NCBI GenBank assembly: GCA_032718475.1
Contig: JAUCBJ010007965.1
Location: forward strand, 1-62,457
Direction: 5' to 3'
Origin: Nemertoderma westbladi
Taxonomy: Eukaryota; Animalia; Xenacoelomorpha
Length of the DNA: 62,457 nt
Shown: in pieces, positions 5,101 to 62,457 of the stretch
How positions within the stretch are numbered: position 1 is the first letter of the stretch
Layout: each line of letters starts with the position of its first letter
The notes under the pieces: model-generated
Database searches by the model: none
Seen by the model: the letters and a program-made list of their open reading frames with translations, nothing else
Told to the model about the DNA's origin: nothing
Translations under genes and position numbers: made by a program

Positions 5101-5156
5101 GGGGGGGGGGGGGACAGGGTGACATTCCCCCATCACAATATCAACAATATACCCCG
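2141..5156 (+). pseudogene. N-terminal gag region of family 1 (coiled coil, Asn-rich tract, 13-aa repeats), broken only at three poly-G runs
   Basis: ORFs 2306-3484, 3501-4220, 4166-5122 and the frame leading into 5157 abut and switch frame at G runs near 3464-3481, 4177-4192 and 5098-5113. Confidence 0.7.
3865..4065 (+). repeat. 39-bp coding tandem repeat (EGLVGH[V/I]VGRQGA x4 plus a partial unit)
   Basis: gagggcctggtaggccac[g/a]tagttggtaggcagggagca repeated in frame. Confidence 0.9.
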
Positions 5157-8100: not shown

Positions 8101-9041
8101 CAGACATCCACACGAAGAGGGGCTATGTATCGTATATAGCAAGGATATACGATCCCCTAGGCCTAGCATCCCCATTATTAGTCACGGGGAAACAGATACT
8201 CAAGAGAGTATACAAGTTGAAGGATGAGTGGGATGTAGAGGTACCAGAGGAAATCAAGAAACAGTGGAGCAAGTGGACAGGAGACTTGGAGAAGATGGGA
8301 ACATACATCATGCCACGAGTGTATTTCCCGGATGGGAACATGACGAATCTGGACCTACACATGTTCTCCGACGCGTCGTTGGAGGCGTACGGAGCGGCAC
8401 TCTATTTAGTACAACGAGAGGGGGCTCATAAGCCCAGACTAGCCTTTAGCAAAGCAAAGTCAACGCCGCCAGATTCAGCATCAGTTCCCAAGTTAGAATT
8501 GACAGCTGCGAGACTAGGAGTTAGAGCCACAGCCTATCTAGTGGATACCATTCCCAACATAGTGGAGACACACTACTGGACGGACTCCATGGTAGTGCTT
8601 GGTTGGCTACATAACGAAAGGACGAGATACCCGATATTCGTCGCAAATAGAGTGGACGAAATAAGGGTGACCACAGAACTGGAAAGGTGGCACTACTGCC
8701 CAACAGACGAGAACCCAGCGGACTTGCTGTCGAGGGGCGTGGAACGCCACACTTTCTTGAAGAAGGAAGTATTGTGGCAACATGGGCCACAATTTCTGAG
8801 CAATAAGGAGGCCTGGCCGCCGATGAGAAAGGTGGAGCCGGGCTCGGAAGTAGTGTCAGAGGGAGAAGAGGGAGATTCAGAGGGAGAAGAGATATACTCC
8901 CAGATGGTGAGGGAGATTAGGGACGTGCAACCGAGACGAGAACTGTGCGATAAATTTAGCTTGGTTCGCAGCTATCCTATCCACATCAATTGCGTCCAAC
9001 ACACGCTGGGCTCCTTCACTATTAGGGCTAAGTCCATCTAA
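5157..9041 (+). CDS. BEL/Pao gag-pol fragment: gag core, Cys/His knuckles, aspartic protease, RT, Pao-type RNase H; last ~30 codons are antisense of copy A
   Basis: PFKFDG gag motif; CSRCVMSGHRAREC knuckle; LVDSGA protease; YYLPLH..KLRMVVDAS and FYVDD RT; HMFSDAS, PKLEL, WTDS, NPADLLSRG RNase H. Confidence 0.92.
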   Translation: MGARTTRPLDENRSCDTEIWRGPLPPMTYPSQRKSRNRTDEPHQTGETIQHPSNPLEAQAMGMATLIDALKTRIELPPVEPFKFDGSRPEEYLQFRRMYSNEILTKNLTQAECLKYLQVYTGGPAYDIVRQYQGIEGGFTTAWRALDREYGHPAKIIRQTLRGITSGGLQDNPVSIKTFANKVEKALIVLKTLDAPYELNASNNITTIAQALPNWLRNKWRKIAFSTRDKKGAEPGLEEMSNFLNYEAELITDPVYSEDSLGKGPKTDYHRPKPEHNTSNALPRLRQSLPYAATQGTASPQLAEDKTTPWNGQGNNNNTNKYTPSTSSRPNPNNKNSRDFGTNATAIRNALYKEGYDPKSKCQLHANALHQTMNCRYWQALPRQDQIDYALSNKICSRCVMSGHRARECKEKPVKFGQRRGQTMAMSTVGAKKRGTVLLGVVPVLVIGEGNQSVTTLMLVDSGAAFTLVEEWVAEEIGLRMRPSRMAVTTISSKDEILEMRTGRCAIAAVAPGCDYGATINPIQVIESININARRPTNIEVEQYKFLDDIDFSIPDVDVRKVSIIVGMDCPTAHERMQTVFGEDKQCDPGAILTPFGWTLSGPIKSKIPFRMSETSGCMFVGTMQEMGDEGAEEQLKRLLRQDFEGLKETGVGTSVEDKQALQSVEESMTCEEGRYTIGMVWKLPKTPLPDNRGMVLTRLRKLKQTLKRSPEKNEYIHRMIKKYVEKGWAVELPVDEPNTDRTYYLPLHVALDPKKGKLRMVVDASAKTDGKCLNDYLLEGPNIYNSGIEVLLRFRNGKHAFTCDMEGMFNQVRVTEEDSDSQHFLWYNGEEEPSIIPTYKMVVQNMGAKSSSFTTTMAVRDTVKGKEDRYSSRAVDMIQRGFYVDDGMESGNTVKEILDTGREVRDILKGSGFKLTKFQSNSEEFIKAIEDKRPESTMDNPTTAKGQDMANKRTESQQKALGIMWDRETDELKYQLSQEGADIHTKRGYVSYIARIYDPLGLASPLLVTGKQILKRVYKLKDEWDVEVPEEIKKQWSKWTGDLEKMGTYIMPRVYFPDGNMTNLDLHMFSDASLEAYGAALYLVQREGAHKPRLAFSKAKSTPPDSASVPKLELTAARLGVRATAYLVDTIPNIVETHYWTDSMVVLGWLHNERTRYPIFVANRVDEIRVTTELERWHYCPTDENPADLLSRGVERHTFLKKEVLWQHGPQFLSNKEAWPPMRKVEPGSEVVSEGEEGDSEGEEIYSQMVREIRDVQPRRELCDKFSLVRSYPIHINCVQHTLGSFTIRAKSI

Positions 9042-20353: not shown

Positions 20354-21691
20354 TTAATTATCATCATCTTCTTCTTCGTCACCAAAGTCTCCATCTTCAT
20401 CGACTGTCGCATCCTGGTACTGCTGGTACTCACTGATCAGATCTTGCATGTTACTGGCAGCCTCGGTAAACTCCATCTCGTCCATACCTTCCCCGGTGTA
20501 CCAATGAAGGAAAGCCTTTCGGCGGAACATTGCTGTGAAATGCTCATTGACCCGTTTAAACAGCTCCTGGATGGAGGTAGTGTTGCCAATAAATGTTGAT
20601 GACATTCTAAGTCCTCGAGGAGCGATGTCGCAGACTGCTGTCTTTATATTGTTAGGGATCCACTCTACAAAGTAGCTACTGTTCTTATTTTGAATGTTGA
20701 GGATTTGATCATCAACCTCTTTCATTGACATTCTTCCACGGAATATCGCAGCTACTGTGAGATAACGTCCATGCCGCGGGTCGCAGGCTGCCATCATGTT
20801 CTTTGCGTCGAACATCTGTTGTGTTAATTCGGCGACACTGAGTGATCGGAAGTTTTGGGCGCTGCGACTCGTAAGAGGGGCCACACCCGGCATGAAGAAA
20901 TGCAACCGAGGGAATGGAACCATATTAACTGCGAGTTTACGGAGGTCCGCATTCAACTGTCCCGGGAAGCGAAGACATGTGGTGACCCCAGACATGGTTG
21001 TGGAGACGAGATGGTTTAGGTCACCGTAGGTTGGGGTCGTTAGTTTAAGAGTGCGGAAGCAGATGTCATAGAGTGCCTCATTATCTATGCAGTAGGTTTC
21101 ATCCGTGTTTTCTACTAGTTGATGGACCGATAGAGTTGCATTGTAAGGCTCGACCACGGTGTCTGATACCTTCGGGGATGGGACCACAGAGAAGGTGCAC
21201 ATTATCCTGTCGGGGAATTCCTCCCGTATCTTGCTGATTATTAGTGTGCCCATTCCGGATCCGGTTCCACCTCCTAGAGAATGGGTCAGTTGGAATCCCT
21301 GAAGACAATCGCAACCTTCTGATTCCTTCCGTATCACTTCTATAACTGTGTCAACCAACTCTGCTCCTTCTGTGTAATGGCCTTTTGCCCAGTTGTTTCC
21401 GGCGCCGCTCTGTCCGAAGACGAAGTTATCCGGACGGAATATGCTCCCAACTGGTCCTCCTTTTATGGCATCCATAGTTCCCGGCTCAAGGTCGACTAAC
21501 ACGGCCCTGGGAACGTACTTGCCACCCGAGGCCTCGGTGTAGTAAACATTGATTCGTTCCAACTGCAAGTCCGAGTCGCCATGGTAATTCCCTGCTGAAT
21601 CGATTCCATGCTCGTCGGAAATTACCTCCCAGAACTTCGCACCAATCTGGTTGCCACATTGACCCGCCTGGACGTGAACTATCTCTCGCAT
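20354..21691 (-). CDS. TUBB: Beta-tubulin, 445 aa, intronless CDS, divergent isotype
   Basis: MREI start, GGGTGSG GTP-binding motif, full-length colinearity with beta-tubulins, acidic tail; AATAAA at 20006-20011 (minus); likely 5'-UTR acceptor ttttatttccAG at ~21719. Confidence 0.98.
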
Positions 21692-43143: not shown

Positions 43144-44343
43144 TGTTCGCGCTTTTAGACCTTTAGCAGTTTAACCTGCCAAATTTAGGTGTCTTCTAGG
43201 TTATAAATCGACTTTAGCCTATAACAAGTGTTTGATACACATAAAGCTACATTAGCCGAAGCCAGCCTATGCGCGATCATTCACCCACGGTTAAGGGAGA
43301 CTGGATTCGGAAGCTCTGACCTTATTGCGGTGTAGACTTACTGTACTATTCGATTGATCGTTAATATATAATCTCTGACAAATATTATTCACTTTCGGGA
43401 AATATTAACAGTTCCTTTAGGACGTGGCGCTCTAAGTATGTAAACAGAGTTATGACTTACACTAAACACAACGGGATGGCTAATGATTTACGTATAAAGC
43501 GCATTCTTTAGGAAATGCTTTGTTATCTATCACACTCATGCACACTACCGCACAATGCTGCACACTGATCTGCCGACCTTCACTAATTTTAATCATATAT
43601 AAGGAGAACAGCAACTGACACATGTAGGGTCTATGAAATAGCATTCAATTCACTCCAAAACCACTATAATGTAAGTCGCAATTGCTATATGTAACCGGTC
43701 TCTCTAACCTTCAGTATATCAAGAAGATTGGGGTTTTCTGATTATTTATCGATATTCTCCAAATATAATCCATCAACTGATAACAATTAATAACCGACAG
43801 TAAATATCAGTAAAATAATGCGGTGAAAGGTATGTATAGTATTTGAGTTATGAATTATGCATTGAGTTGAGTTGAGTTGTTTGAGTTGATAACAGTTATA
43901 CGTTTCTATGATCAAAGCCGTTCTAATGTTTTGCTAAAGTCTGAAACACAGAATAATTCCACAGACGATGTTCTGGGCTCAGGAAAAAAGGTAACCAAAG
44001 ACCATAATGCATTGCGCGATTTCCCGGAGGCTTCTGTACAAATAAAATGAAAATCGCTCTGATTGGTCGAGTGAGAGAGCCTGAACAAAGAAAGCCAAAA
44101 GCTCCACATCGACATATCAGCTGATAGATGTCGTCATCTGAACTACACTGTATTAAGAGTATTTTGGCGCATTGCGGCATAAAATTGCTTGTTATGTCTG
44201 CTAAAGTACACATACAGAAAAAATGGCTTTTTATGTCCACTAAAACACCTACACAGTAAGAAAACGGCTTTTTATGTCCGCTAAAACACCTACAGAGTAC
44301 TTTGTGGGAAAAATGACTAGCTAGATCCGCAAAAGCCTTTACA
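43144..44343 (-). repeat. 3' LTR of copy B (1200 bp, TGT...ACA)
   Basis: Element strand TGTAAAGGCTTTTGCG...AAAAGCGCGAACA; colinear with 12267-13435. Confidence 0.9.
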
Positions 44344-44351
44344 CCGCTCCC
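44344..44351 (-). promoter_or_regulatory. Short polypurine tract GGGAGCGG
   Basis: Directly precedes the TG of the 3' LTR on the element strand. Confidence 0.65.
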
Positions 44352-44876
44352 AGAAAATGGGATTTAATTCTATAAAATATAAAAAATCACAGTTTCTAAA
44401 ATATAAAAATACTCTAAACAGTTAGTCTTTCTTGCGAGGACGGCGTTTACGCAGTTTTTTGAGGCTAGCAAAAGTCCTTTTCTCTTTGGGGCGAGCCACT
44501 TTACTAGGAGGGCTATAACTCCTGGGTGAAGGGTGCAATACAATTGCATCGGAAGGTTTGGAATTACGGTCGGTGTATCCGCCGGTTGAGGTACCCGTTG
44601 ATTGGTATTAGCCTAAGTAGAACGAGGTCGAACAACCTTAAGAGCGCGTTTTAAGACAGCAGCTCTTACTGGTCCCTGATGGGTCGTTTGCACGAGAGCG
44701 GTAGGTGGACCATGTGTAGTGAGAAATTTCCTCGGTTTGATGATTCTTTCCAACTCGCGTTCTCGGGCTCTATCGGGATCGATATGCTTCTCCTCGAGCT
44801 GATTTTCCTCCGCTTGTCGTTGAAAGCATTCGTCTAAAACTCTTTTAGAGTAGAGTCATCCAAGTTCGATATCTTC

Positions 44877-46136
44877 TTAGAGATTCTGGATTTCCTGATT
44901 GAACTGACATAAAGCTAATTCGTTTACCGCTTGGACTTGCTGCTGCAATTTACATTTCTCTAAACAATTGTAGGTTCCTTTTCCGATCTTTTGACGAATA
45001 GTGTCCAACGCGTTTCGTACAACGCTCTCCTCGACTTCAGTGACGGGTTGTATCGGGGTTAAACCAGGACGATTGTACGGGTTGAACGGCGATATTAGAT
45101 GCCCGCGTCCCAATCCGGCTAGGTAGGAAGGGCAGATATCTAGCGAGCCCACTACCGGAGTGCCACCGATTAACTGTTCGGGTAACACAAGATCTTTAAA
45201 TAGTGAGTACAGTTCAGGGGGATCCGTTATACTATTAGGATCAAGCGTTTGAGGTCTCACTAAGGAATGAGGAGGTCTGACCGAGTATTCCGGAACTCTG
45301 ATCATGGGTTTATTTAAGGATCGTATGAGCCGAGCGAGCGTAGGTGATACGTCGAACAGGTTTCGCTCGAAACTTCCATAAGTATATTGTGTAAAACTGT
45401 GTTTAGCGCAACGTCTCCGCGGATGTTTATGTCTTTCCGTTTGCTGATTGGGTCTAGGGTATTCATCGCAGTAATACCAAAGACGCACGTCCTGCAGGGG
45501 AAACGCGGGTGATCGTTCTCCAGTTTTACAATATTCCTCCATCTGTTCGAAGCTATCTGGGACGACAGGTAGCGGTCGAACGGCGGTAAGATACATCATA
45601 GTGAAATAGAGCCGTTTGAGTTCTATCATAGGGTCATGATGTATACCTTGAGGATATCGAGTTTCTAGATTTTGTTGACTGGCGATATTGTGATATGTTT
45701 CTCTCAAGAATTCCAGATAATCGTTGAAGTCGCTGCGTTTATCCGGCTCTTCAACGTCTTCTCTTTCGAGTCGGTTCCGAATAGAATTCTCGTGTTCTAT
45801 TCTCGGTTTATTGTTCCGACTCTGCTGGGTATGATATTTAAATAAAACCATTTCCCTTTCGGTGTCTATATCGTCCGTATCGTGTAAATCGATAGGATGG
45901 CCAGTAGTTAAGAAGTCCATATACGTACCATTACGATGCGTATAGCGAGCGGTGAATTTTCTATAGTCCAATTCACGCGTAAGTTGCTCCTGGGACATCG
46001 GCGGTTCGATATAATGACCATCGTCCTCCGTAGTAGTTGGACTAGCGTCGCCGCGTATTAAGCTATCAACAAACGCTTGTAAAGTTAGAGTATATCGCTC
46101 CCTGATACCAAGATCATCTTCTATCAACTCAGTCAT
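44877..46136 (-). CDS. Extra ORF of copy B in the env position, 419 aa, unknown function (degenerate extension to ~44422)
   Basis: Long non-repetitive ORF on the element strand between pol and PPT; no evident signal peptide or transmembrane segment; no domain recognised. Confidence 0.8.
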   Translation of the reverse strand: MTELIEDDLGIRERYTLTLQAFVDSLIRGDASPTTTEDDGHYIEPPMSQEQLTRELDYRKFTARYTHRNGTYMDFLTTGHPIDLHDTDDIDTEREMVLFKYHTQQSRNNKPRIEHENSIRNRLEREDVEEPDKRSDFNDYLEFLRETYHNIASQQNLETRYPQGIHHDPMIELKRLYFTMMYLTAVRPLPVVPDSFEQMEEYCKTGERSPAFPLQDVRLWYYCDEYPRPNQQTERHKHPRRRCAKHSFTQYTYGSFERNLFDVSPTLARLIRSLNKPMIRVPEYSVRPPHSLVRPQTLDPNSITDPPELYSLFKDLVLPEQLIGGTPVVGSLDICPSYLAGLGRGHLISPFNPYNRPGLTPIQPVTEVEESVVRNALDTIRQKIGKGTYNCLEKCKLQQQVQAVNELALCQFNQEIQNL

Positions 46137-47839
46137 AGCTGCTATATGAGTTTATCAATATTATAATAAGTTTATAATTAGGCTAGCGGGCGTCGCTGCC
46201 TACCCCTCACGGCCCCCGGACAGTGCAAGATCCTCAGCGCTGATGTACTGTCGCCGATGTGCCTATCGCCAACATAGTAGCTGCACAACGACAACAACAA
46301 CCAGCGCGAGTCACTCCACTGTCTGTCCCAAAGGCTTAGATTTACTTCAGGTTCTTACTGCAGAGTTAGGGCTACTTTCACAATTGCGACTCGCTACTGT
46401 AAACACACTTTAGTAGTAACATTCACCTATAAACGCACAAATTCCACACAACTGTCACAAATTGTACACATTCGGGCCATTTGTCCGTTAGTCAAGTGCC
46501 TTCCAGAATGCCACGTTATTATTATGTATCCTTGGATACTAGCAGTGTGCTATTTATTCCTTATGCTATTCAATGGGGCAAGCTTTCTATTGTTCTTTTA
46601 ACTCGCTTCTAATTCTAGCGTGGTTGTTGCTATGGTGACATTATGGAAAGCTAGCGGTAGAATTAGGGTAATTCCCATGCATACAGATCTGGGATGCTAT
46701 TTAATAGTAATTCTTTAATTGTCAATATCCCCTTTATACATGATTTTATGAATTTTATCGGCTATTGACTATATATGGGAGATTCCCGCACACTAATACA
46801 CTCAATAGGGTGAATCTCCGCTCCCATGATCTATTAATTAATTGAATTTTTGGGAATGTCATAAATTGCATAAAATGACAATTTATCAAATTCATTAAAA
46901 AGATGAATTTAAATTTATTCCTGTAAATTTTTTTATTTATCCTTAAAACAGACATAATTTTATTCCAGAGCATGTCTGGGGACTAGTATCCTTAATTCTA
47001 GGAAATTTGTCCTTTTAAGAGCATCGGTAAGTGCTACGATATCTTAATAGACTAGAATTTTAAAGGATCTAAAATTTTACAGATTTTAATTTATAGATTT
47101 TCTAGAGTTAACTTGTAAGTAGTTACTCTATTGTATCTGTTTGACAGATTTTATAAATATTAATAGTTAATATTTAAGATGGGCACCGGTTTATTCCAGA
47201 ACGTGTCTGGGGACGTTAACCACTGATTCTAGAATTTTGTCTTTCAAGTATATCGGTGGGTGCCGCGATATCTTAATTGACTAGAATTACAGATGGTCAA
47301 AGGGTTTAACAGATTTATTTTGCATTTTATGCTACTGTTAAAGGGACATCACGCTACTATATGTATTATTTAATATATGGTATGAGAGCAATATCACAAG
47401 AAGCAATGTCAGTGAGAAGAGGCAAGTCGTTTCCAAGGTCTACCCAGAGCTTGGTTTAGCCGAGACACGAGGATCTGAATTTTGCATTCCTAATACTCTA
47501 CTTACCAATAATACTTGAATATAGTAAGAGCTTTATTGTACTTTAATAAGTACGGACATTTCATCTTACTGTAGTCACGTATTTATAATGTACTACGGAC
47601 AGTAAGGAAAGAGAAAAAAGAATTATTTCTCGCCGTCGCACTAAATATATAATATATAAGTAATTAAGTAATAAGACTAATATATATTGCACTAATCTAC
47701 TAAATAATCGCTAAAATAACATTCTACTAAATAAAATTAAAGAAAACGATTATAATAAAATTACATAAAAATACATACATAAATATAAAATAATAAAAAT
47801 ATATGAAATAATATAGTCACACACCCACTCCAGACGCTG

Positions 47840-50800
47840 TTACGTTGGGGAGTCCCTAGATGTTTGTTGGATTAGGGAGGTGGTCGTGGGAAGAGTATCT
47901 TGCCTTCCATAGTTTCCGGAGAGTTCTCTGTCTCTTTCCAGTAAACATAAACGACCAACTGGGCGATTGAGCTGCTGCGTCTCGAAGACAATTCCCGGTT
48001 TCTTAAAGTTACGTCGCATGACGACGAGTTCTACCGATCGCACCAAACCATCATCCGAGATATGAGTCTCGATGATACGACCTGTCTGCCACCGCTTACG
48101 TGGAAGATCTGAATCCACAATAAGGACCATGTCTCCGGCGCTGACGTTTTCTTGCTGCGCAAACCACTTAGTTCGAAGTTGTAGAGTAGGCAGATAATGT
48201 TTTTCGAAATGGTCAGCGAAACGACGGGATAACAACTGCATAAGTTGCCAAGTTTGCCGGCAGTATTCGTCTCCGTCCGTGATTTCCGATCGTGGGAGCA
48301 TGGCTACAGGTTTCTTCAGTAGGAAGTGCGCGGGTGTTAGCGCTTCCAGGGAATCGGGACTCGATGAGACTGGCATAAGCGGTCTCTCGTTGAGATAGGC
48401 GGCGATTTCCTCCATTAACGTCCGCAAAAGTTCGTCGGTGAGATACGCGCGGCACGGCACTATAAAGTGAAATGCGGTCTTCACGCTTCTGATTAATCTC
48501 TCCCAACTTCCTCCCCACCACGGGGCGTCGGCAGCGTTGAAGGTCCAACTAGACGCTGTTACCCTTAGCTGATCGTCCACCTGTCTTTGGTTCCAATCTT
48601 TGACGTAAGCCTTAATTTCATTGTTGGCACCAATGAAGTTCGTTCCCTTATCAGATCTCATCGTGTTGCTAGTTCCAAAGCGAGCGATCTGTCGGCGTAA
48701 GCTCAATATGAAGCTATTGGTAGATAAATCGTTCACCATATTGAGATGGATAGCTCTACAAGTCATACAGACAAAGATGACACACCATCTCTTGACTATA
48801 GTCCTAGCACGATATACTTCAATAGGGCCAAATAAATCCATACCGGTATTAGTAAAGGGTGGTTCATAGAAGCTTACTCGTTCCCTAGGTAATTCTGCCT
48901 CTCGCTGTGTTAAAGGCCTACTGAATGCTTTCCTACAGGGTATGCAGTTCCTAAGAACTTGGTTCAGAGCTCTACGGGGTTTATAAAAATAATAGCGAGT
49001 TCGAATTTCGCTAAGAACTCGTTCTCTACCAGCATGATAAAGCTTACTGTGAACATCTACAATCATCTTGATTTGTATTTCAAGATTTCTAATGAGTATG
49101 GGAAACTTAGTGTCAAAGGATAATGGAGCATTAGTTAGTCTTCCTCCAACGCGTATTAACCCATCTATCATTGTGCTAGAGAAACGATCCCTTAAGCGCA
49201 TCTGTGGATTTCTCAACAACAGGAAATACTTATCGGAATCCTCATAGCATTGCAGGAGTCTCAGTATCTGCTTATTGGTTTCTTCATGCTCCTGGTAACT
49301 GATCTTCTCCTTCAGAAACCTGTCGGATATCTTGTATTTGGGAAGATCTTTAACAACATGGACCTGCGCAGATGTCAGTGGAGCGGTATCACTAGTGGTC
49401 TTCGTCCTGGAGTAGTGATGATGAAAACATCGCTTTAAATATGTAACGGCCTTACAGAGCCGATTCCAGGAACTATAGTGATGTATCGCTCTCTGCAGGA
49501 GGGGTGAGAGTCCTTGCGAGACGTCTGGTATTCCAGATTTCCAATCTCTCTCTCTGATTTCCACAACAGACTTATTTGTGGCTGTGGGTTTCGGATCCAA
49601 AGCGTCGTCTCCGGAAGTGTGTAGTACAGACAGATCTATCACGGGTTTAAATAACTTCGATTTACTCGCCCGGGTTTTAGGTTTGACTTTCTCCGCTCCC
49701 TTGGCCTGTCTAATCTCCGCCGTAGTAAGATGAGGAGGCCATTCATCCTCTTCCTTGCTTAGGAAGTCGGGTCCACCTAACCAGTCTGGAGTATCTATCA
49801 GTTCTTGCGGAGTTGCTCCCCTGGAGGCGATGTCGGCTGGATTAATCGTCCCAGGGCAATGTCTCCATTGATCTATCTTCGTGCGACTAAGTATAATGGC
49901 TACTCTGTTGGTAACGAAGACGCTGAACTGACAGACTTCATTGGTTATATACTCCAACACGAGTAAAGCATCGGTCCAATAGATAGTTTTCTCCAGTGGA
50001 TAGTCGATCTGTTCTGTTACATTCCGGCCGATGGCTGTAGCGTATAGAGCCGCTTTTAACTCCGCTCGAGGAACTTTCAACTTGTTGTTTATCAATGCCT
50101 TAGAGGTAACCAAGGCGACCTTAATTCCATCCGGAGTTTCAACTCTCAGGTAGGCTACTATACCTATTCCCATATCGCTGGTGTCTCCAAACACATGGAG
50201 TTGATAGGAATACGTAGGGAGAACATGACCAAAATATGAACGGGAAATTATAAAGTTCTCGATGGATGGTAGAGAATCTTCCCATTTCATCCACTTCTTT
50301 AATAGTTCTCCCTTAAGTGGATCGTCCCATGTGTGGTTTTCAAGCCATATTTGTTGTACTATACTCCGAGCAATCAATATAACTGGGCTAATAAATCCCA
50401 ATGGATCGAAATAAGTGCTCAGGATACTTAGACAAATCCGTTTAGTCCGAACTGGATTATCTCGCTGTTTTAGCTGGAAAAACAGGATATCTCTCTCTGT
50501 GTCCCATTTCAAACCAAGCGTCTTGGTTTCTGGAAGATCGTCCTTGATTAGGTCTAGATCTTTAACTCCTCGGTCTTCTACCGGGATCGATTCCAGAAAC
50601 TCACGGGAGTTGCTGGTGAATTTAGTTAATCGAAATCCACCTCTTTTCAAGCACTCTACCGTTCCTTTGGCGACATCAATGGCTTCTTCCACCGATGGGA
50701 GGGACTTTAAATTGTCGTCCATGTATATATCCCGTTTGATGTTGTCGATAACCTCTTTAGAGAAGGCGTCCCGGTTGTCATCAGCAGTGGTGCGCACTAC

Positions 50801-51856
50801 TGAGCAGGCGTTTGAAGGGCTTGAGATGATCCCAAAAGCCTGGATGGTCATCCAGTACTCCACCGGTTTCTGGTTGAGGTCTCCTTCAGGCCACCACAGA
50901 AATCGTAGGCTGTCTCGATCTCTATCCAGCGCCTTAACTTGTAAGAACATGCCTTCTATATCGGAGGCGAAAGCGATTGAATATTGTCATAATCTTAAGA
51001 GTATTCCCAACAAGGATTGTAGTAAGTTGGGTCCTGGCAACAACTCGGAGTTAAGGGATTGGCCCATGTAGAGGGCGGAGCCGTCAAATACTACCCGGAC
51101 TTCATTGGGTTTACCAGGTTTGGGAACGTAATGATGTGTTAAATAGTACGTTCTCTCAGTTATGGGTGTTCCTTCCGGTACTCGCTCCGCATATCCCTTG
51201 TCAATGAATTTCTTCAGCTGGGTCTTGTACATCTCCTTAGCTGAAGCATTTGCCATAAGGCATCGATGTAGTTGCGCAATTCTCTTCTCCGCCAAGGGTC
51301 GGTTGTTTATAAAATTGGGTTCTCGCCGTCGGAAAGGCAGACCAATCTCATACCTACCTTGATCTTTAAGAAAACGTGTAGTTGTTTCCTGTATCTGCTT
51401 GGCTCTTTCTTCTTCTACCGATAGGGCCTTATCGTAGGAATTGGGCTCTACAGCCTCTTGAGTAAAGAATCGTTCGGCGTGTTCAGCACGAGTCTTCGCA
51501 TTGTAGCAATCTATCACTTCATTCAGTTCGTCGTTGTAGTCGACTTGTCCTGCTGGATGAATGAGGTGACATAGGTTCACTTGGTTTTGCCAAGTTTCAT
51601 TTTCCGTAAGGAGGTCAATGGTATTCTCCTCGTCGAAGAGTTGGTGGATATCGTCATTATCTGAGGAGTATGGTGTTCCCTCAGTTGGGTCGTCTCCCTC
51701 ACTGATCTCATCTTCCCATTCACTCACCTGGTAGACTCTTTCTTTGGGTAGCCTTTCCATGAGAGTTCTACGGGAAGGGCCAGTAAAGTACCAACCTACT
51801 CTAGTTCTTCCCGCATAGGTTTGTAGTGGTTGCGGTTGAGCAGGCCGTTTCTCCAA
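47840..51856 (-). pseudogene. pol of copy B: RT, Pao-type RNase H, integrase; one in-frame stop at 50987-50989
   Basis: YYLTHH..VRVVFDGS and IYMDD RT; HVFGDTS, RAEL, WTD, NPADIASRG RNase H; HSKLYH..CIPC zinc finger with GMDLFGP, RSDKGTNF, SWERL integrase triad. Confidence 0.95.
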
Positions 51857-54800
51857 TGTCTCAAGCGCCTCATGCGCATTTTGGCCGATAAGTATTTGTA
51901 CTCCAGGTTAGTCTGTGTTGAATCTAGGTATCTTATGCTGCTGGGTGAAATCGTCCTCATCCCAGTTATAAGGTTCCACTTGGCTGGTAGCGAAGTTCTT
52001 TATCGCCACCATTTTTACTGACCTTATGCTGTGTTCTCCTAGTTCATCCTGGGGGGTGGACAACGCGCCTATATAGTAATCTGTAGTTACTGTAGATTTC
52101 CAAACCTGCATAATTCCTGACATGTTCAACTTAGTTCGGAACTTGGTTATCCAGCAAAGATGTCTTCGGCTAGTTCTTTGTCGATGAATGTTCCTGTGCT
52201 GCCGGAGTCAAGGAGGGCGTTCACTATATAACTCTTGTCTGGCCCGTGGACTCTCAACTGCACTACGGGAAATTCTTGGATTCCTACGTTGGAAGTTGGT
52301 GCTTTCCAAGATGGTTGTCGGTCAGGAGTAGTTAGGGGGAGCTCATTGACGGTTTCCTTCTCATACGTAAGTGCTTGATACACTGCGGTATTTATTAGGT
52401 AACAGGATTCGTTTTCGTCGGAGAATTCATCCGTATAGAATCCTTCCATCTCAGAACTTTGGTCAGTGTCGTTCACATCACTGAATTGGACATGTAGTTC
52501 GGGCTCACTTACCTGACTCGGGCTGTTTCTTTCGAATTCAGTGCGCAACAAGATATGATGTTTTGCGCCGCACTTAGCACACCTTGCGTCGGAGTAACAG
52601 GTTCGCCGTTGGTGTCCTTGTCTGAGGCAATTATAACACAACCGCTTATTCCACATGACTTCACGTCTATCTATTAGGGATTTCCTCAGGAATTCATCAC
52701 ACGCACTTAAACGGTGGGGCCCGTCGCACAGCACACATTTTGGTTTGATGTTACTTACCTTACTTTGGGTAACGTTGTGCACACTCATTCTTTCCTCGGG
52801 CTTTCTTCCATGAATTCTCTTAGGAGACGTAGGAGGAGTTTTTCTTACCTGTTCTCTCCTGTCATTGGTTCGAGACTTGAATTTACTTACGTCTTTAGGC
52901 GCTTTGTTGACATAGTAAGATCTATCAATGTCTTTCCCGCTGTCCTCCTCTTGAGAGGCCTGGCTTTCACCGTCGTCTGTATAACACACTGGTGTTACCT
53001 TTCTCCTAGAAACGGGTTTCTCACTTACCTTATTTTCCGGTGTCTTCTCTCTGGACTGCTTTAGGAGCTGTAATTTTACCTCTCCATCTAAGAATGACAT
53101 GAGATCAGCCATGGTAGGGTCTCGTCGTTGTTGTTCCATCCTATATAAGACTTTCTTGTCCCAGCGTGTACCTACTCCACCCTTTGGTAAAGTAGAGGCC
53201 ACGGCTCCAATAACCATAGAACTCTGATATTCATGAGACTTACCTAGCCAATCTAATTGTCTACAGATTTCCTGAATCTCATCGGAAAACTCTATAATCC
53301 CGCTGCTAATGAACTTTCGGGGCGCTACCAATTTTGCATACAAATACCTAGCTATGTTATTTCTATTACCATACCTGATGTTTAGTGTATCCCAAACTTG
53401 TCTTAATTCATCTGGATGTCCAAACAAACTTTAACGCCATTAACTTGGGAGATCCTTCCAAGCACTCGATGAGGAATCTAAGTTTCTCTCCGTTAGATAA
53501 CACAGAGTTCTGTATGTTATCTTTGTAATATTCATTAAAAGGTAACCATTTCATCTCAACTCCATTGAACTTGACGATCTCTCCCACCTTTACCGCTTGA
53601 CAGACTTCGGTTCTAGCCATTTGACGCGTAAAACTTTCTTGGGCCATCGTATTATTTAATATCGAGTTATCGGTATATAAATTTCTCGGATTATTATCAG
53701 GTCTATATGGAATATCATTGTCAACAGGTTTATAATTACCCTTAATAGGGTTTACTATAGGAGTTTCTACTTCACTAGCAGTATAGATGCGTGTAGGCTC
53801 CACACCTTGCGCATGAAATACTTCAGACCTAACAGGTTGACACATTGTTACAGGGGGTGGTGGTATACCCTTTTGTGTATTTACTAATTTATCGCGTTCT
53901 AACGTGATATTCTGCTGCACTTCTTGCAACTCTAACCTACTTTCCCTTACTGTTCCCTTGAACTGTTGAACAGTCTCCTGCATCTGCCCGAGCAGGAGAT
54001 CCATCCCCCGCCGTCCCTCATCCACCCACTCGACCGCCGAAGCGGGAGCCACCAACATAGTAGCGGGTAGATGAGGGACAACAGGCGACAAATCATTGAT
54101 ATTTCGCTCGGAGTCCAGGACAGGAACTGTCTCAGGGGCTGTTCTGCTGGGCACAGGTAGTTTAGTGCTGTGCAAAGGGGATTTAGAGTTGGGTTCTGGA
54201 AGTACAGGGGTCTCTATCACAGAGGGGGTAGCTTCGAGAACAGGCCCAATCATTTCAGGCTCATCTACTATAGTAGGGAGTCTTTTTACTCTAATAATTT
54301 GGTCTGTGGGTTCTGTACTACCTAAGTCCGTGCTAGCTAGTTGCCTTCTCACAGCTGGGGGCAAATCAGGCAATTTCTGACGGTGGGGCATTCTTCTACG
54401 CCTGCTGAGACGAGATCTATTTCCTCCGCCTTCAGGATCTGTTGTATCGCCTTCATCCAATGATGTAAAGCCCTGTCGCTTGGGGGTGGATCGACTTATC
54501 TGCTGCATCTGGCTAGCTGTTATCTGTTTATTGAAGTTGTCTTGTTTCTCTTGAAGATCTTCCAACTCTAGTTGGGTTGTCTCTTCAGATGCCCTCCGTT
54601 CTGCTTCTGCCACTGCCACTGCCGCTTTTCTTTCCACTTCTACTGCTGCAGCTGCCGCTTTTGCCTCTGCCGCTGCCGCTTTTCTTTCCGCTTCTGCTTC
54701 TACCGCTGCTGCTTTTGCCTCTGCCACTGCCGCTGCCGATGCCACCTTTCTTTCAACTTCTGCAGCTGCCGCTGCTGCTGCCTTTCTGTCTTCTATTCGT

Positions 54801-57123
54801 TTTTTCTTTAATTGTTCTTCCTGTTCCCTAACGATGCGGATTCTTTCATCAAATTTAGCTCGATCCGCTTCTAACCTTTCCGCATCTATTGCGTCCAACA
54901 CAAACTTGGCTCCTTCACTATTAGGACGAAGTCCAGCCAGCCATCTCCTCAACTCTTTGTCTCCTACAAATCGTTGATAGTCCGACAGGTAGATGTCAAT
55001 AGCGTCCTTCTTCTGAGGTTTCTCTAATGTAACCTCGCTTTCCACCTGAGAAAAGGCAGCGTCTGTTGATTCTCCATGGGTGGAGCGCTCAGCCAGCTGA
55101 AATTTCCACTGGGCCGTTCCTTGAACCTTGAGACTCACCCGCTGGAAACAAGTCTTTACGGCAACTTGCAACGACGTGTCTTGTCTTCTTTTCGAAGCTT
55201 CCTCAAAGGCCGATAGGATTAGTCTGATTCTTAGAATTCTTTCTCGAACTTGATAAAGCAGCTCTCCCTGCTCTTGAGGTCCTTGGGGTTGTTGAAACAG
55301 TTGTTCCTCTAATCGCTCCAAAGAGCTGAAGAATCCCTGTACGTATCCTGCTGCTGACCTCTTCCACACAGCTGGATCACTAGTGTCTTTTGTCACTCCC
55401 ATCCTGTGTATGTCTTCCCAGGCAGCTTCCGATAAGTCAAACGGGAGTCCGGGTCCGGGGAAGTTCCATTGCGACTCGACAATAGACTTCAGTTCCTCCC
55501 TTGTGTATCCCGCATAACTGTCATTGGTTGATCGCTTACTTCTCGCCCAATCAATTTGGTGTTCCTCCACCGCAATCAATACCTTAGTGAGTACGGCTGC
55601 AGGAAGAATGAGAAGGGGATCCGAATAAACCGCTTCGGAAGCAGGACAATTCGGTCCCGGACAATTCGGTCCGGACAATTCGGTCCCGGACAATTCGGTC
55701 CCGGACAATTCGGTCCCATTAATTTTGTGTTTTGGGACCGAATTGTCCGGGACCGAATTGTCCAGGACCGAATTGTCCGGATACTGACTAGGACAATTCG
55801 GTCCCAAAACATGCAAATTAATGGGACCGAATTGTCCGGGACCGAATTGTCCGGGACCGAATTGTCCGGGACCGAATTGTCCAGGACCGAATTGTCCGGG
55901 ACCAAATTTAATTGGTACTATATAATGGTGAATTTTCTAGAACCTTAATATATATTATTATATGGTAGCTAGTGTTTTTTTTTACTAACTAGTATTTTTT
56001 TATAAATAAAAAAAATTTACTTTTTTTTGTTAACATTATTATTTATGGTAGCTATTGTGTTTTTATGGAGCTTGTGAATTATTTACTAGCTAGTAATAGT
56101 ATGTATTTAAAATGTTTAAAACTGATTTTTTTAAATACTGCGTAAGTATAATGTACAGTATGTGTTGTTGGTTGGTAACAAGCCTAAATTATTATCCTAG
56201 ATAATAGCTGGATCTCATTCAGGGACTGTTATAATATCATCAATATTGTTGGTAATTAATATAATCAGCAACAGTTTAGGCCTAATTCTGAAATATCAAT
56301 GTTTTCACAAGTGTTTTTATAATTTCAAGGAAATGCTAGCTAGTAAAAAAAAACACTAGCTACACCTTAATAAATAATATATAATAATGTTCTCGAACAC
56401 TTACAATAACAAAAATAAAAAAAAATACAGTATTTTTAAAATTTCAAAAAATTCTAGCAAGTAAATAACACTAGCTACCATAACAAATATCTCTACTAAT
56501 GTTCTAGAACATTCACCAATATCAAAAAAAGCACTAAAAAGTTGCTATCAGGAACCGGACAATTCGGTCCTGGACAATTCGGTCCCGGACAATTCGGTCC
56601 CGGACAATTCGGTCCTAGGACAATTCGGTCCTAGGACAATTCGGTCCCGGACAATTCGGTCCCGGACAATTCGGTCCCATTTATTTAGTGTTTTGGGACC
56701 GAATTGTCCGGGACCGAATTGTCCGGGACCGAATTGTCCGGACCGAATTGTCCGGGACCGAATTGTCCGGGACCGAATTGTCCTACATCCAACCGCTTCT
56801 GCCATCCTTTCTCCGCGCTCGGGTGTCAGCTCTACAGTATCCGAACTACTGGAGCTATCGGGCCGCTGAGAAATAAGTTCTCGGCTAGGGTGTTGCTGCT
56901 GTTTGACAGCTGCTTCTTGATCCCACTTGACTTGAGCCCGAGTGCCTATGATAGACCTACGGTGTTGGACTAGCCTAGGGTCTGATACTACTACTTGAGG
57001 GATGATCTTTCTTACAGTAGGAGGTGAGTTGAACTTCGGTCTCAAACGTTCAGCACTCCTATCTGGGTCACAGATGGTTGTATCTAGGAGACTGTCTGAC
57101 AGGTTTTGCTTTGTGTCAGACAT
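51857..57123 (-). pseudogene. gag and protease of copy B, with frameshifts near 53420 and 52147, a stop at 51908 and a foldback insertion
   Basis: IVKFNG gag motif; three Cys/His knuckles (CVLCDGPH, CYNCLRQGHQRRTC, CAKCGAKHH); LLDSGS protease; Ala/Glu/Lys coiled coil. Confidence 0.9.
55637..56790. mobile_element. Non-autonomous foldback element, Mutator-like (9-bp TSD), inserted in gag of copy B
   Basis: TSD aaccgcttc at 55628-55636 and 56791-56799; termini ggaagcaggacaattcggtcc / ggaccgaattgtcctacatcc; 17-bp ggacaattcggtcccg-type arrays; empty site visible in copy A near 9729-9737. Confidence 0.92.
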
Positions 57124-58830: not shown

Positions 58831-60149
58831 TGTAAAAGCTTCTGTGGGATGCAACTGGTCCTTCGCCCCGCGATCCAGTTTTTCCCCCATACGCTGAAAT
58901 ACTCTGAAACCTGCTGTAAAAGCGTTTACAGATATAATTGGATCCCCTAGCCCTCGGGGTGCTGTATAAGTGTTTTTAACGGACATAAAATAGATTCTTC
59001 TGAATGTGTGCTTTATGCGGACGTAGCAGGGTACATAACCCGCAATGCGGCATTTCACTGTCACTATGTCAAGGGAAGGATTCTGATTACGACATCTCCC
59101 AGCTGGATGATGACGTGGAGGGAGCTCTCATTGGACTCCTGGTTCCTTTGTTTTGGTCTAACAACCAATCAGGGTGATTTGCGTTTTCCTTGAAGAGATA
59201 CCTACAGCAGCTCCCAAACTCAGTTTTTATGTCGTTCTATACTGCCTGAAGATCGGCTGGAATGACGCAATGTTTCTGCCTTTTTATAAGAACATTAGTA
59301 GGCTAAATTATAGAAAGCATAGCTATTATCCATTTGATCCGATTTGATCCGATTTGATCCGATTTGATCCGATTCGATCCGATTCGATTCGACACGATTC
59401 CAATTTATAACTTAACGATTCAATGCAATCTAATTATATCTTAACCTACCGTCATACTGCTTTTACTGTTTGTAATTTTGTATCAGTATAATTGGATGTT
59501 ATTAGTTGAAGAATATCAATAATCAACCCACATTTTCCCAATATCCTTGAAACACTACAGGTTAGAGAGAAGGGTTATGTACAACAATTGCGACTTTATT
59601 ATTGTGTTTGTAGTGAATCTAATGTTGTTTGACAGACACTACCTGAGTCCAGTGCATATCTCTTTATACCTGATCAAAGTCAGTAACTGTCGGCATATCA
59701 GTGAGCAGTGTTGTGCGTTACCGGTAGCGTGCGTGATTGTAAAGTGATTGGATCTGATAATAAAGCATTCCTAAAGAATGCGCCCTATGCTTGAAATTTA
59801 AGCCATATTGTTGTGTGTAGTATCAGTCATAACTCTGTTTACATAGGTAGAGCGCCACGTCCTAAAAGGAACTGCTAATATTTCCCGAAAGTGAATAATA
59901 TTTGTCAGAGATTATATATTAGTAATCAATCGAATAATACAGTAGGCTTGACCGCAAATAAATTTAAGCCCACGAATCCAGTCTCCCGGTGTTATAAACG
60001 GGTCATTTGGACGCGCATGGACTGGCTTCGGCTAATGTTTTTGGTTTGTTTTTGTATTAAATCTTGTCATCTTATAAAAGGCAGTTTATCAATAAAGACA
60101 TATAAATTTCGGCAGGTTAAACTGCTGAAGGTCTATAAAAGCGCGTACA
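58831..60149 (+). repeat. 5' LTR of copy C (1319 bp, TGT...ACA)
   Basis: Starts TGTAAAAGCTT, ends AAAAGCGCGTACA; contains (atttgatccg)n at 59332-59400. Confidence 0.88.
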
Positions 60150-60160
60150 ATAATAGCTAT
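60150..60160 (+). promoter_or_regulatory. Primer-binding site of copy C (ATAATAGCTAT), complementary to its own LTR
   Basis: Abuts LTR end; exact reverse complement of atagctattat at 59319-59329. Confidence 0.8.
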
Positions 60161-62186
60161 CGATCTTATTTGCGGTAAGCAATAAGATTGAAAGTACCGG
60201 CACTCCAGTAGGTCAGTAGGCCCAACTGTCATAACCGGTACTACTACCGTAGGTCCGTAGGCCCAACTGTCATAACCGGTACTGCTGTACAAGTACATTA
60301 GTATTATTCGATTTTGATTATTGTATACCGGTAGGTCTTGATACTAAATCGGGGACGCCTGGTTTTTATTGGGATTTTACTTAGGTTTATTTCTGTCAGT
60401 TTTATTTCCTAGTAAGTTAATATTGAGCTGAAGACGTGTAAGTCTGCTCAGATTGTTCAGATCATTGTAGGCTGGACTGTTGTCTGACTGTTGTTAGGCT
60501 TGAAGATTACAGCGTGTGTAGAGGTCTGATAGGTGCCAGTTAGTAAGTTGGGGCAACTCGTAAGTTGTAAGGTCAACCCCCATAAAGAATAAGCCGCGCT
60601 ACCTTATTAGCACGCATACTCACTAACAAGTTTCGGAATCTGCATATACTGTGGTTATTTAGGCTTGATAGTAGTCCGTCAGCGTTTATACTGTACTGTC
60701 TGTATAGTCCGTTCAGATACCGTAATAGTATTATTTAGATATTTGTAGGCTGGATTGTTGCCTAGCTGTTGTTGGGTCTGAAGAGATTGCCGCGTGTGTA
60801 GAGAGTCTGATAGGTGCCAGTTAGTAAGTTGGGGCAACTCGTCAGTTGTAAGGTCAACCCCCATAAAGAATAAGCCGCGCTACCGTATTAGCACGCATAC
60901 TCACTAACAAGTTTCGGAATCTGCACATCCTGTGGTTTATTTAGGCTTAATGGTAGTTTGTCAGCATCCGGTTTGTATTTTATTTGAGTATTCTGTACGG
61001 GTAGCGTAATATTTATTATTCAGAGTTTATGCGATTACTCGCAACATTCATGTCCCCAAGTTTATTCCTACAGTAATTGTGTTTGTTATACATACCGTTA
61101 TAGTTAAATTAACCCCAGTACTACACGGGCTGCTTGGCGTAGGTAAAGACTGGTGACTCAGTGCCCCGGTCACTCCAGCAGATGCTGTGGTTCTTTTAAC
61201 TGTTCAAGTATATTTAACTACTGGTTATCTGTTTTTACAAGTACCTGTACCTAATTTAGGGTTTAGTGTACAGTGCTTTCCGAAAGTAATTAGTGTAGGC
61301 ATTATTGTGTTGTAAAGTGGTTAATAGGCACGCTCGTTCTGGTAGACGGCGGTAATTAACTTCTAGGTAGGAACACTCCGTAGATACATAACGTTGTACC
61401 TATAGCGATACGGCTGTAGGTCGTCAGGCGGTGGTACTTTCCTATCTAGACAACGCAGTATTTACTTCTACTTATTATTTTCAAATACCGTAGTATCCTG
61501 TTCGTTGTAATAGCCAGAAGTTCTAACCCTTTGTTAGACTGGTTAGTAGTTTCCCTGTGAAATTGCCCTAAAAAATTTCTGTACGTAACGTTTTGTGTGT
61601 TTATTAGAGATTGTAATCTCACCAATAGTAAGTAACTAGTAAATAAGTAACGTAGGCCAGTAGAATTATTCTGTTTAGTGTCCCATAAGTAGTACTTCAC
61701 TAAAAGCGCTTAGCTTCTGTGTAGTGGTATTTTGCCGGAAATAGTAACATCTATTTCAATCTTGTAACGAAATACCTTATCAGGGTATATATATATATTA
61801 TAAATCAACTCCAAAGATTTATAAATCAGTAGGCCTGCCATACAACAAGTAGGTCACAATATCAGTTGGACTACTGCTTGCATAATGGTAACAAAGTAAA
61901 CTCAAGTAACTAAGTAACTTATAATTTCAGAAATTCAATTATCCTAAATAATTGATATACCGGTATCTATAATAGGCTTAATATATATTTGTATATATTT
62001 GAATTGAAATTATATACCGGTACTCTGTAACAAACCTAGTCTGCAATACTTATATATACTGTGGGTGTATACCGGTATCCTAATATATTGTAATTAATTA
62101 ACTGTACTAGGCCAACAGTCTTACTGAATTACTAGACTTGCTTTAACTGTAACTATAGCAATAGGCATTCAACTGTACAAACAAAC

Positions 62187-62457
62187 ATGTCTGACACAAC
62201 CCAATCACTGTCAGATAGTCTCTTAGAAAGTGTTAGAATGACTGTGAGGCAGTGTCTTAAAAAGAGCAGTGACCCAGACCAAAATATAGAACATCCCAGA
62301 CACAGGTCTAAGTCCCCTCCTACTGTAAGAAAGGCCATCCCTACAGTAATAGTGTCAGACCCTAGGCTAATCCACCATAGGTCTATCATAGGCACTCGGG
62401 CCCAAGTCAAACGGAACCCAGAGGAAGCTGTCCTATCGCAGCAACATCCTGATCACG
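62187..62457 (+). CDS. Start of gag of copy C (MSDTTQSLSDSLL...), open to the window edge
   Basis: Hand translation is open and matches the A/B N-terminus (SPPTVRK, RSIIGTRAQVKR). Confidence 0.85.
   Translation, partial: MSDTTQSLSDSLLESVRMTVRQCLKKSSDPDQNIEHPRHRSKSPPTVRKAIPTVIVSDPRLIHHRSIIGTRAQVKRNPEEAVLSQQHPDH

What the first reader, a model, noticed from the sequence alone, without database searches (positions are those of the whole stretch)
44422..46136. Extra non-env ORF of unknown function in the 3' region of the BEL element
Seen: a 419-aa soluble-looking ORF 1.7 kb downstream of pol, with no signal peptide or transmembrane segment and no motif I recognise. Reading past the stop, the frame stays protein-like (EDIELG*LYSKRVLDECFQRQAEENQLEEKHIDPDRARERELERIIKPRK...), with TAA/TGA/TAG stops that are each one C>T change from sense codons. 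After one frameshift it ends in KKLRKRRPRKKD* at 44422. Established: extra 3' ORFs in BEL elements (roo, Cer7, Tas) are typically envelope glycoproteins. Inference: the ancestral protein was ~570 aa with a basic NLS-like tail, possibly a nuclear accessory, anti-silencing or RNA-handling factor.
Basis: partly seen in the sequence, partly recalled or inferred. Interest (0 to 1): 0.75.

Follow-up and report, generated by a model that had tools for sequence, protein, structure and literature searches.

The report
Orphan accessory gene in BEL retrotransposon
A large jumping gene, likely from an animal, carries an extra gene where related elements keep an envelope gene, but this one has no membrane anchor and no known relative, and its product likely works in the nucleus, possibly helping the element's own RNA get out.

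Summary
The ORF is real: 419 codons on the minus strand (46136-44877), between pol and the PPT/3' LTR of a BEL/Pao element at least 15.7 kb long. It has no signal peptide or transmembrane stretch. No relative was found among 1.84 billion cluster representatives, Pfam, PDB or the other libraries tried. Contigs of four public runs hold many diverged copies. Sites that vary among them are mostly synonymous (18 of 28), while changes private to this copy are not (5 of 21). The signal is significant beyond the first stop (14 of 20) but not in the core alone (4 of 8). Stops 2 and 3 are private to this decayed copy, and a frameshift lies near 44595. Stop 1 was not shown to be private and may be genuine, so one continuous ~570-aa protein is unproven; an in-phase 78-nt intron could skip it. 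Best reading: a spliced nuclear accessory protein that works like CERV of Cer1 or Rev; the function is untested. Extra ORFs are known in other LTR groups; I found no non-env one described for BEL/Pao. The family also shows a Tf1-like self-priming signature.

The parts
44877..46136 (-). Extra ORF core, 419 aa, ATG to stop 1; soluble-looking, no homologue
   Evidence: no hits
44422..44876 (-). Downstream coding stretch, broken in this copy: same frame to about 44595, then a second frame to the stop at 44424-44422; no Met in the 93 codons after stop 1
   Evidence: 14 of 20 variable sites synonymous
44856..44858 (-). Stop 2, private to this copy
   Evidence: 98-100% of depth reads otherwise in 4 of 4 runs
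44613..44615 (-). Stop 3, private to this copy
   Evidence: about 100% of depth reads otherwise in 4 of 4 runs
44594..44597 (-). Frameshift zone
   Evidence: one-base gap rows and contig ends (tables 4 and 8); 5 of 9 sites below it synonymous in the second frame, 3 of 9 and 0 of 9 in the other two
44425..44499 (-). Basic C-terminal tail: 13 K/R in the last 25 residues, one monopartite NLS-like match; two SP and one RS just upstream
   Evidence: function inferred
44876..44953 (-). Candidate 78-nt in-phase intron containing stop 1 (best of 6 GTRA donors in the ORF; tandem AG acceptor at the stop)
   Evidence: predicted only, no RNA
46139..46147 (-). Acceptor-like 9-mer just before the ATG, also found before the gag ATG of copies A and B and nowhere else in the window
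   Evidence: null 5 of 441; noticed by eye first
46137..47839 (-). AT-rich spacer with an internal 129-nt duplication and a GC-rich box near the ATG
   Evidence: fold z -1.8
44344..44351 (-). Polypurine tract
   Evidence: sequence
43144..44343 (-). 3' LTR, 1,200 nt, TG...CA, 75% identical to the LTRs of copies A and C
47840..50986 (-). BEL/Pao pol, RT to integrase
   Evidence: PF05380, PF17921, PF18701
52147..57127 (-). Long gag and protease, broken by stops and an inverted-repeat insertion at about 55644-56783
   Evidence: PF03564 below cut-off

Best explanation
This is an element-borne, non-envelope accessory gene of a BEL/Pao family, present in many copies and under moderate purifying selection, whose product is likely made from a spliced RNA and likely acts in the nucleus, most plausibly by helping unspliced genomic RNA leave it, as CERV and Rev do. 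Shown: position between pol and PPT/LTR, many copies, synonymous bias, no TM segment, basic tail, no homologue. Inferred: the element splices (acceptor-like sites before gag and before this ORF, donor-like GTAAG 26-29 nt after the 5' LTR), so its full-length RNA would count as intron-containing and need an export helper. Inferred: the tail with the NLS-like stretch is joined to the core either because stop 1 is decay or by a short in-phase intron, which would give a short form without and a long form with the tail. I put about 0.9 on 'real, non-env accessory gene', about 0.6 on 'nuclear' and about 0.35 on 'RNA export or handling'.
For: ORF far beyond chance. All 30 bins covered in three runs and 29 of 30 in the fourth, with contigs from 99+% down to under 90% alike. 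18 of 28 variable sites synonymous against a neutral expectation of at most 0.34 (p=0.001), 5 of 21 private ones (Fisher p=0.009). 0 of the 12 indel rows shown fall in coding DNA, which is 43% of the stretch. Shared acceptor-like 9-mer. Donor-like site kept in copies A and C. Basic, SP-containing tail. Precedent: CERV occupies the env position, is non-env, spliced, nuclear, without homologues outside nematodes, and needed for genomic RNA export (PMC10309623: abstract, passages, sections 9 and 15).
Against: No homology or fold ties it to CERV, Rev or any RNA-binding protein. Constraint in the 419-aa core alone is not significant (4 of 8, p=0.27), and pol looks stricter (5 of 5). The sites are those the tool chose to show (40 of 1,269 and 40 of 96 rows). 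Indels are also more likely in AT-rich non-coding DNA. The splice signals are short motifs noticed after the fact. A 730-nt R-U5 leader with 9 ATGs would hamper a cis-spliced message. The NLS-like stretch lies beyond stop 1, which may be genuine; the core has no such match. CERV shares exons with gag; nothing shows that here.
Confidence: 0.35

Rival explanations
1. A nuclear anti-silencing or transcription factor that acts on the element's LTR or internal promoter, possibly made from its own promoter like Grande gene23.
For: Same composition evidence. GC-rich box and TATA-like site at 46176 before the ATG. Fast divergence and orphan status fit host conflict. Grande GENE23 is nuclear with its own promoter (PMC7264820, parts 1-2 of 3).
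Against: No DNA-binding or chromatin domain found. TATA-like words are common in this AT-rich spacer (9 sites).
Confidence: 0.2
2. A particle-associated or cytoplasmic cofactor (nuclear import of the integration complex, particle transport or help for self-priming).
For: The basic tail could bind nucleic acid. The family has an unusual primer site.
Against: Tf1-type priming is not known to need an extra protein (recalled). No link between the two traits could be tested: one ORF-bearing copy, and its own 5' LTR is outside the window.
Confidence: 0.15
3. A captured host or viral gene carried along with weak or no benefit to the element.
For: CpG is higher than in gag-pol (o/e 1.40 against 0.68-1.05; 88 CG against 59 expected, 0 of 2,000 resamplings). 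A PPT-like tract plus TGT directly after the pol stop looks like a relic of an older 3' end.
Against: No donor found in any search. Synonymous bias across copies. CpG rises steadily along the element, so it may be positional. The host's own gene set could not be searched.
Confidence: 0.15
4. A highly diverged envelope gene.
For: Env position and orientation. BEL envs come from several unrelated fusogens (PMC13524379, PMC9094657, passages).
Against: No signal peptide, no TM segment, 7 Cys, one sequon, basic C-terminus. No match to viral glycoprotein families or PDB.
Confidence: 0.04

Closest known systems
CERV of C. elegans Cer1 (Ty3/gypsy; PMC10309623)
   Same: [quoted passage not shown]
   Different: Different superfamily; no homology shown; CERV takes its N-terminal exons from gag and has a Cys loop and a G-protein-like fold, whereas this ORF has its own ATG and no fold could be predicted.
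BEL/Pao env genes: roo (F-like), Cer13 and Atlas (phlebovirus-like), Tas (gB-like), mosquito chuvirus-like
   Same: Same superfamily, sense strand, 3' of pol.
   Different: Those are membrane glycoproteins, fused to pol in roo and Atlas; this is soluble, separate and 1.7 kb away.
Extra 3' ORFs of plant Ty3/gypsy and SIRE elements (Grande gene23, Retand; PMC7264820, PMC6317226) and rotifer ORF3s (PMC5408684)
   Same: Between pol and LTR in large elements; mostly orphan and fast-evolving; some nuclear.
   Different: Other superfamilies; many are antisense or carry PMD, Transposase_28, esterase or exonuclease domains, none found here.
Belpaoviridae as profiled by ICTV (PMC8742986, whole text)
   Same: Gag-PR-RT-RH-IN order, Pao peptidase A17 and DUF5641, PPT, LTR of 1.2 kb.
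   Different: At least 15.7 kb against 4.2-10 kb; 11-nt self-complementary primer site in sister copies instead of an 18-nt tRNA site; third gene not env-like.

Membership tests
BEL/Pao (Belpaoviridae), host element | Pol with Pao-type domains in Gypsy order | tested here: met
   PF05380 E 6e-35, PF17921, PF18701 in order
BEL/Pao (Belpaoviridae), host element | LTR with TG...CA ends and a PPT before the 3' LTR | tested here: met
BEL/Pao (Belpaoviridae), host element | 18-nt tRNA primer-binding site | tested here: inconclusive
   This copy's 5' LTR is outside the window; sister copies A and C carry an 11-nt match to their own LTR instead; no comparison with host tRNAs was run
BEL/Pao (Belpaoviridae), host element | Placement in an RT tree | not tested
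   no reference set was fetched
BEL env-like genes | Signal peptide and transmembrane anchor | tested here: not met
   hydropathy maximum 1.14 in the core; hydrophobic share at most 0.45 per 40-residue block of the read-through
BEL env-like genes | Sequence similarity to class I-III fusogens | tested here: not met
CERV/Rev-like export regulators | Non-env gene 3' of pol, kept across copies | tested here: met
CERV/Rev-like export regulators | Made from a spliced RNA | tested here: inconclusive
   motifs only
CERV/Rev-like export regulators | NLS and NES | tested here: inconclusive
   one NLS-like match in the tail; three loose NES-like matches, which arise easily by chance
CERV/Rev-like export regulators | Nuclear location and need for genomic RNA export | not testable with these tools
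   needs bench work
CERV/Rev-like export regulators | Homology or shared fold with CERV or Rev | tested here: inconclusive
   no sequence hit; models unusable, pLDDT 34 and 39

The most novel reading that the evidence does not exclude
This is a 'complex' BEL/Pao lineage: 16 kb or more, self-primed, and regulated by an alternatively spliced Rev-like nuclear protein of an unknown protein family, in which a short intron over stop 1 switches between a form without and a form with the basic nuclear tail.
Probability: 0.15. Interest if true: 0.78.

Novelty: new variant of a known kind. Interest (0 to 1): 0.47.

Why it matters
In what I could read, BEL/Pao elements are described as gag-pol with an optional env, and their replication is called poorly understood (PMC8742986). 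A constrained, soluble third gene would show that this superfamily also evolved retrovirus-style accessory proteins. If it exports RNA, it would be an independent invention beside Rev and CERV. It also offers an orphan protein family in a high-copy element, where natural variation makes fold and constraint tractable once the genome is in hand. The layout itself has precedent in other LTR groups, and the function is untested, which caps the score.

Tried and rejected
Homologue searches, all empty: Pfam, PHROGs, NCBIfam, PDB sequences (31; one chance hit at E 0.65), 5.8-billion protein set at near, shorter and longer lengths, 1.84 billion representatives with the 419-aa core, ESM Atlas (9: best 0.82, below the lead level; 55: none), exact look-up, viral, metagenome and genome contigs, phage records. 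The pol integrase region also found no relative in viral or metagenome contigs, so those collections do not hold this lineage and their blanks say little. Single-sequence AlphaFold2 gave pLDDT 34 and 39; Foldseek on the second model found nothing at E 0.001 or better and is uninformative. No RNA holder listed; X5 is only guessed to be RNA. Rfam: one chance hit; no tRNA genes. Nested-insertion origin of the ORF: no flanking repeats or second match in the window. An LTR-promoter-like motif before the ATG was noticed and dropped (11 of 100 shuffles match). Literature searches listed no paper whose title or shown text describes a non-env extra ORF in BEL/Pao; 35 and 79 none on self-priming in BEL/Pao. 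Repbase, Dfam, GyDB and subscription papers were not searchable. I recall that C. elegans Cer7 was reported with an extra ORF besides env; the papers were not held, so that precedent is unchecked. No supplements were read.

Full report
Observation. The minus strand holds an ORF of 419 codons from an ATG at 46136 to a stop at 44879-44877. It starts 1,703 nt after the pol stop. Shuffles of the region never gave more than 207 stop-free codons (0 of 1,000 reached 419). The protein is hydrophilic (GRAVY -0.75), its most hydrophobic 19-residue window scores 1.14, and it has 7 Cys and one sequon. The frame continues past two more stops (44858-44856, 44615-44613), and a second frame ends in a basic tail at 44424-44422.

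Context. The upstream pol carries Pao peptidase A17, an integrase zinc finger and DUF5641, so the element is BEL/Pao; the host is likely an animal, since the group is described from metazoans (PMC8742986, whole text). A purine tract ends at 44344 and a 1,200-nt TG...CA LTR follows (44343-43144), 75% identical to the LTRs of copies A and C. The final stop lies 78 nt before that LTR. Copy C appears to have inserted in the opposite orientation into this copy's 5' UTR at about 58830, so this copy's 5' LTR is not in the window; the part present spans 15,687 nt. No repeat flanks the ORF region and nothing else in the window matches it.

Other copies. No genome is held. Five of 7 listed runs hold the stretch or part of it, from 4 studies (one may be the source). 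I laid 4 runs. They cover 30, 30, 30 and 29 of 30 bins, with contigs spread from 99+% to under 90% identity, as expected for a multi-copy family with subfamilies. Summed depth is not copy number. A long X4 contig runs from 46002 to 46412, across the ATG into the spacer, another from 44390 to 44732, across the final stop, and an X5 contig crosses the pol stop (table 8). The 12 indel rows shown (187 more hidden) all lie outside coding DNA, which is 43% of the stretch.

Constraint. I classed the single-letter differences that the tool displayed: 17 in the core and 5 in pol (40 of 1,269 rows shown), and 32 (40 of 96 shown). I dropped 8 rows: one outside the ORF, three in stop codons, four in a gap zone at 44835-44846. 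Sites where at least 90% of depth in both X1 and X2 differs from the window were called private. Private sites: 5 of 21 synonymous, as for neutral decay. Sites varying among other copies: 18 of 28 synonymous, against at most 0.34 expected (p=0.001; Fisher p=0.009). Beyond stop 1 it is 14 of 20 (p=0.001); before it 4 of 8 (p=0.27). Pol gave 5 of 5. The gene is therefore constrained, probably less than pol, and the window's copy is dead.

The breaks. Stops 2 and 3 are read otherwise by 98-100% of depth in 4 of 4 runs. One-base gap rows and many contig ends place the frameshift near 44595, and the sites below it fit the tail's frame best (5 of 9 synonymous, against 3 of 9 and 0 of 9). Stop 1 is different: no row appears for it, although rows at 44858, 44896 and 44900 do. 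As 56 rows are hidden this is not proof, but I lean (about 65%) to stop 1 being shared by most copies. The 93 codons after it contain no Met, so a constrained tail behind a real stop would need read-through or splicing. The best of 6 GTRA donors in the ORF (44953, 5 of 6 letters) is in phase with a tandem AG acceptor at the stop and would remove 78 nt including stop 1; 4 of the 6 donors are in that phase, so this is a lead only.

Expression. The 9-mer ATATAGCAG occurs 3 times in the window: before the gag ATG in copies A and B, and 2 nt before this ATG. Five of 441 non-coding 60-mers of the element share 9 letters with the gag leader; I saw the motif before testing it. A donor-like GTAAG stands 26-29 nt after the 5' LTR in A and C. 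These suggest spliced messages for gag and for this gene. Against simple cis-splicing, the presumed R-U5 leader is 730 nt with 9 ATGs; trans-splicing or an internal promoter remain open.

Identity. Every search was empty, including HMMER over 1.84 billion representatives, three length ranges of the 5.8-billion set, Pfam, PHROGs, NCBIfam and PDB and the ESM Atlas. Eukaryotic transposon proteins are thinly covered there: pol patterns also found nothing in the contig collections. Models were unusable. The tail has 13 K/R in its last 25 residues, one NLS-like match and SP motifs. A His/Cys cluster at residues 223-246 might bind metal (my inference).

Mechanism. I commit to a nuclear accessory protein that helps unspliced genomic RNA leave the nucleus (0.35). 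The element seems to use splice sites, so its full-length RNA faces retention. The closest precedent, CERV of Cer1, sits in the same place, is non-env, spliced, nuclear, lineage-restricted and required for export (PMC10309623: abstract, passages, sections 9 and 15; an earlier AI note, pointed me to it). This is analogy, not homology. Rivals: anti-silencing or transcription factor (0.2), particle cofactor (0.15), captured passenger gene (0.15; CpG excess and a PPT-like relic after pol), env (0.04).

Comparison and novelty. BEL third genes in what I read are env-like: roo, Tas, Cer7, Cer13, Atlas and mosquito elements (passages of PMC3087523, PMC554778, PMC9094657, PMC13524379, PMC3118150). Orphan extra ORFs are common in plant elements (PMC6317226, passages: 582 copia and 3,372 gypsy elements; PMC7264820, parts 1-2 of 3) and varied in rotifers (PMC5408684, part 1 of 5). 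PMC2774666 (passages) names Tat and fungal chromoviruses as carriers of additional genes and does not name BEL in the passages shown. My searches showed no non-env BEL ORF, but Repbase and older papers were out of reach and I recall an extra Cer7 ORF that I could not check. Verdict: real, a new variant of a known kind, function untested; interest 0.47.

Noticed in passing
window 12266-12256 and 12996 (copy A, minus); 60150-60160 and 59319 (copy C, plus): The 11 nt right after each 5' LTR are the perfect complement of an 11-mer 405-440 nt into the copy's own LTR, with 2 mismatches to the other copy's LTR: a covarying Tf1-like self-priming signature in a BEL family. Other notes of this scan report the same trait in other genomes.
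   Followed up: partly
window 47831-47821 (minus): PPT-like tract followed by TGT right after the pol stop, much like the real PPT/LTR junction; perhaps a relic of the 3' end before the extra gene was gained, or an internal plus-strand primer.
   Followed up: no
window 58831-62457 (plus): Copy C, a diverged subfamily, seems inserted in reverse into the 5' UTR of the ORF-bearing copy, about 100 nt past the primer site; its LTR start looks doubled (58831 and 58915).
   Followed up: partly
window 60160-60195 (plus): Hairpin directly after the primer site of copy C (z -2.3), holding the donor-like GTAAG; weaker in copy A.
   Followed up: partly
window 55644-56783: Inverted-repeat insertion with short tandem repeats inside gag of the ORF-bearing copy, MITE-like.
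   Followed up: no
window 43144-55600: CpG o/e rises along the element from gag (0.68) through RT (0.85) and integrase (1.05) to the extra ORF (1.40).
   Followed up: partly
window 2141-9041 (plus): A second, distinct BEL element with a very long low-complexity gag N-terminus, cut before integrase where it meets copy A.
   Followed up: no
window 20354-21691 (minus): Intronless, divergent beta-tubulin gene with an acceptor-like site about 27 nt before its ATG, amid tandem arrays and LINE fragments.
   Followed up: no
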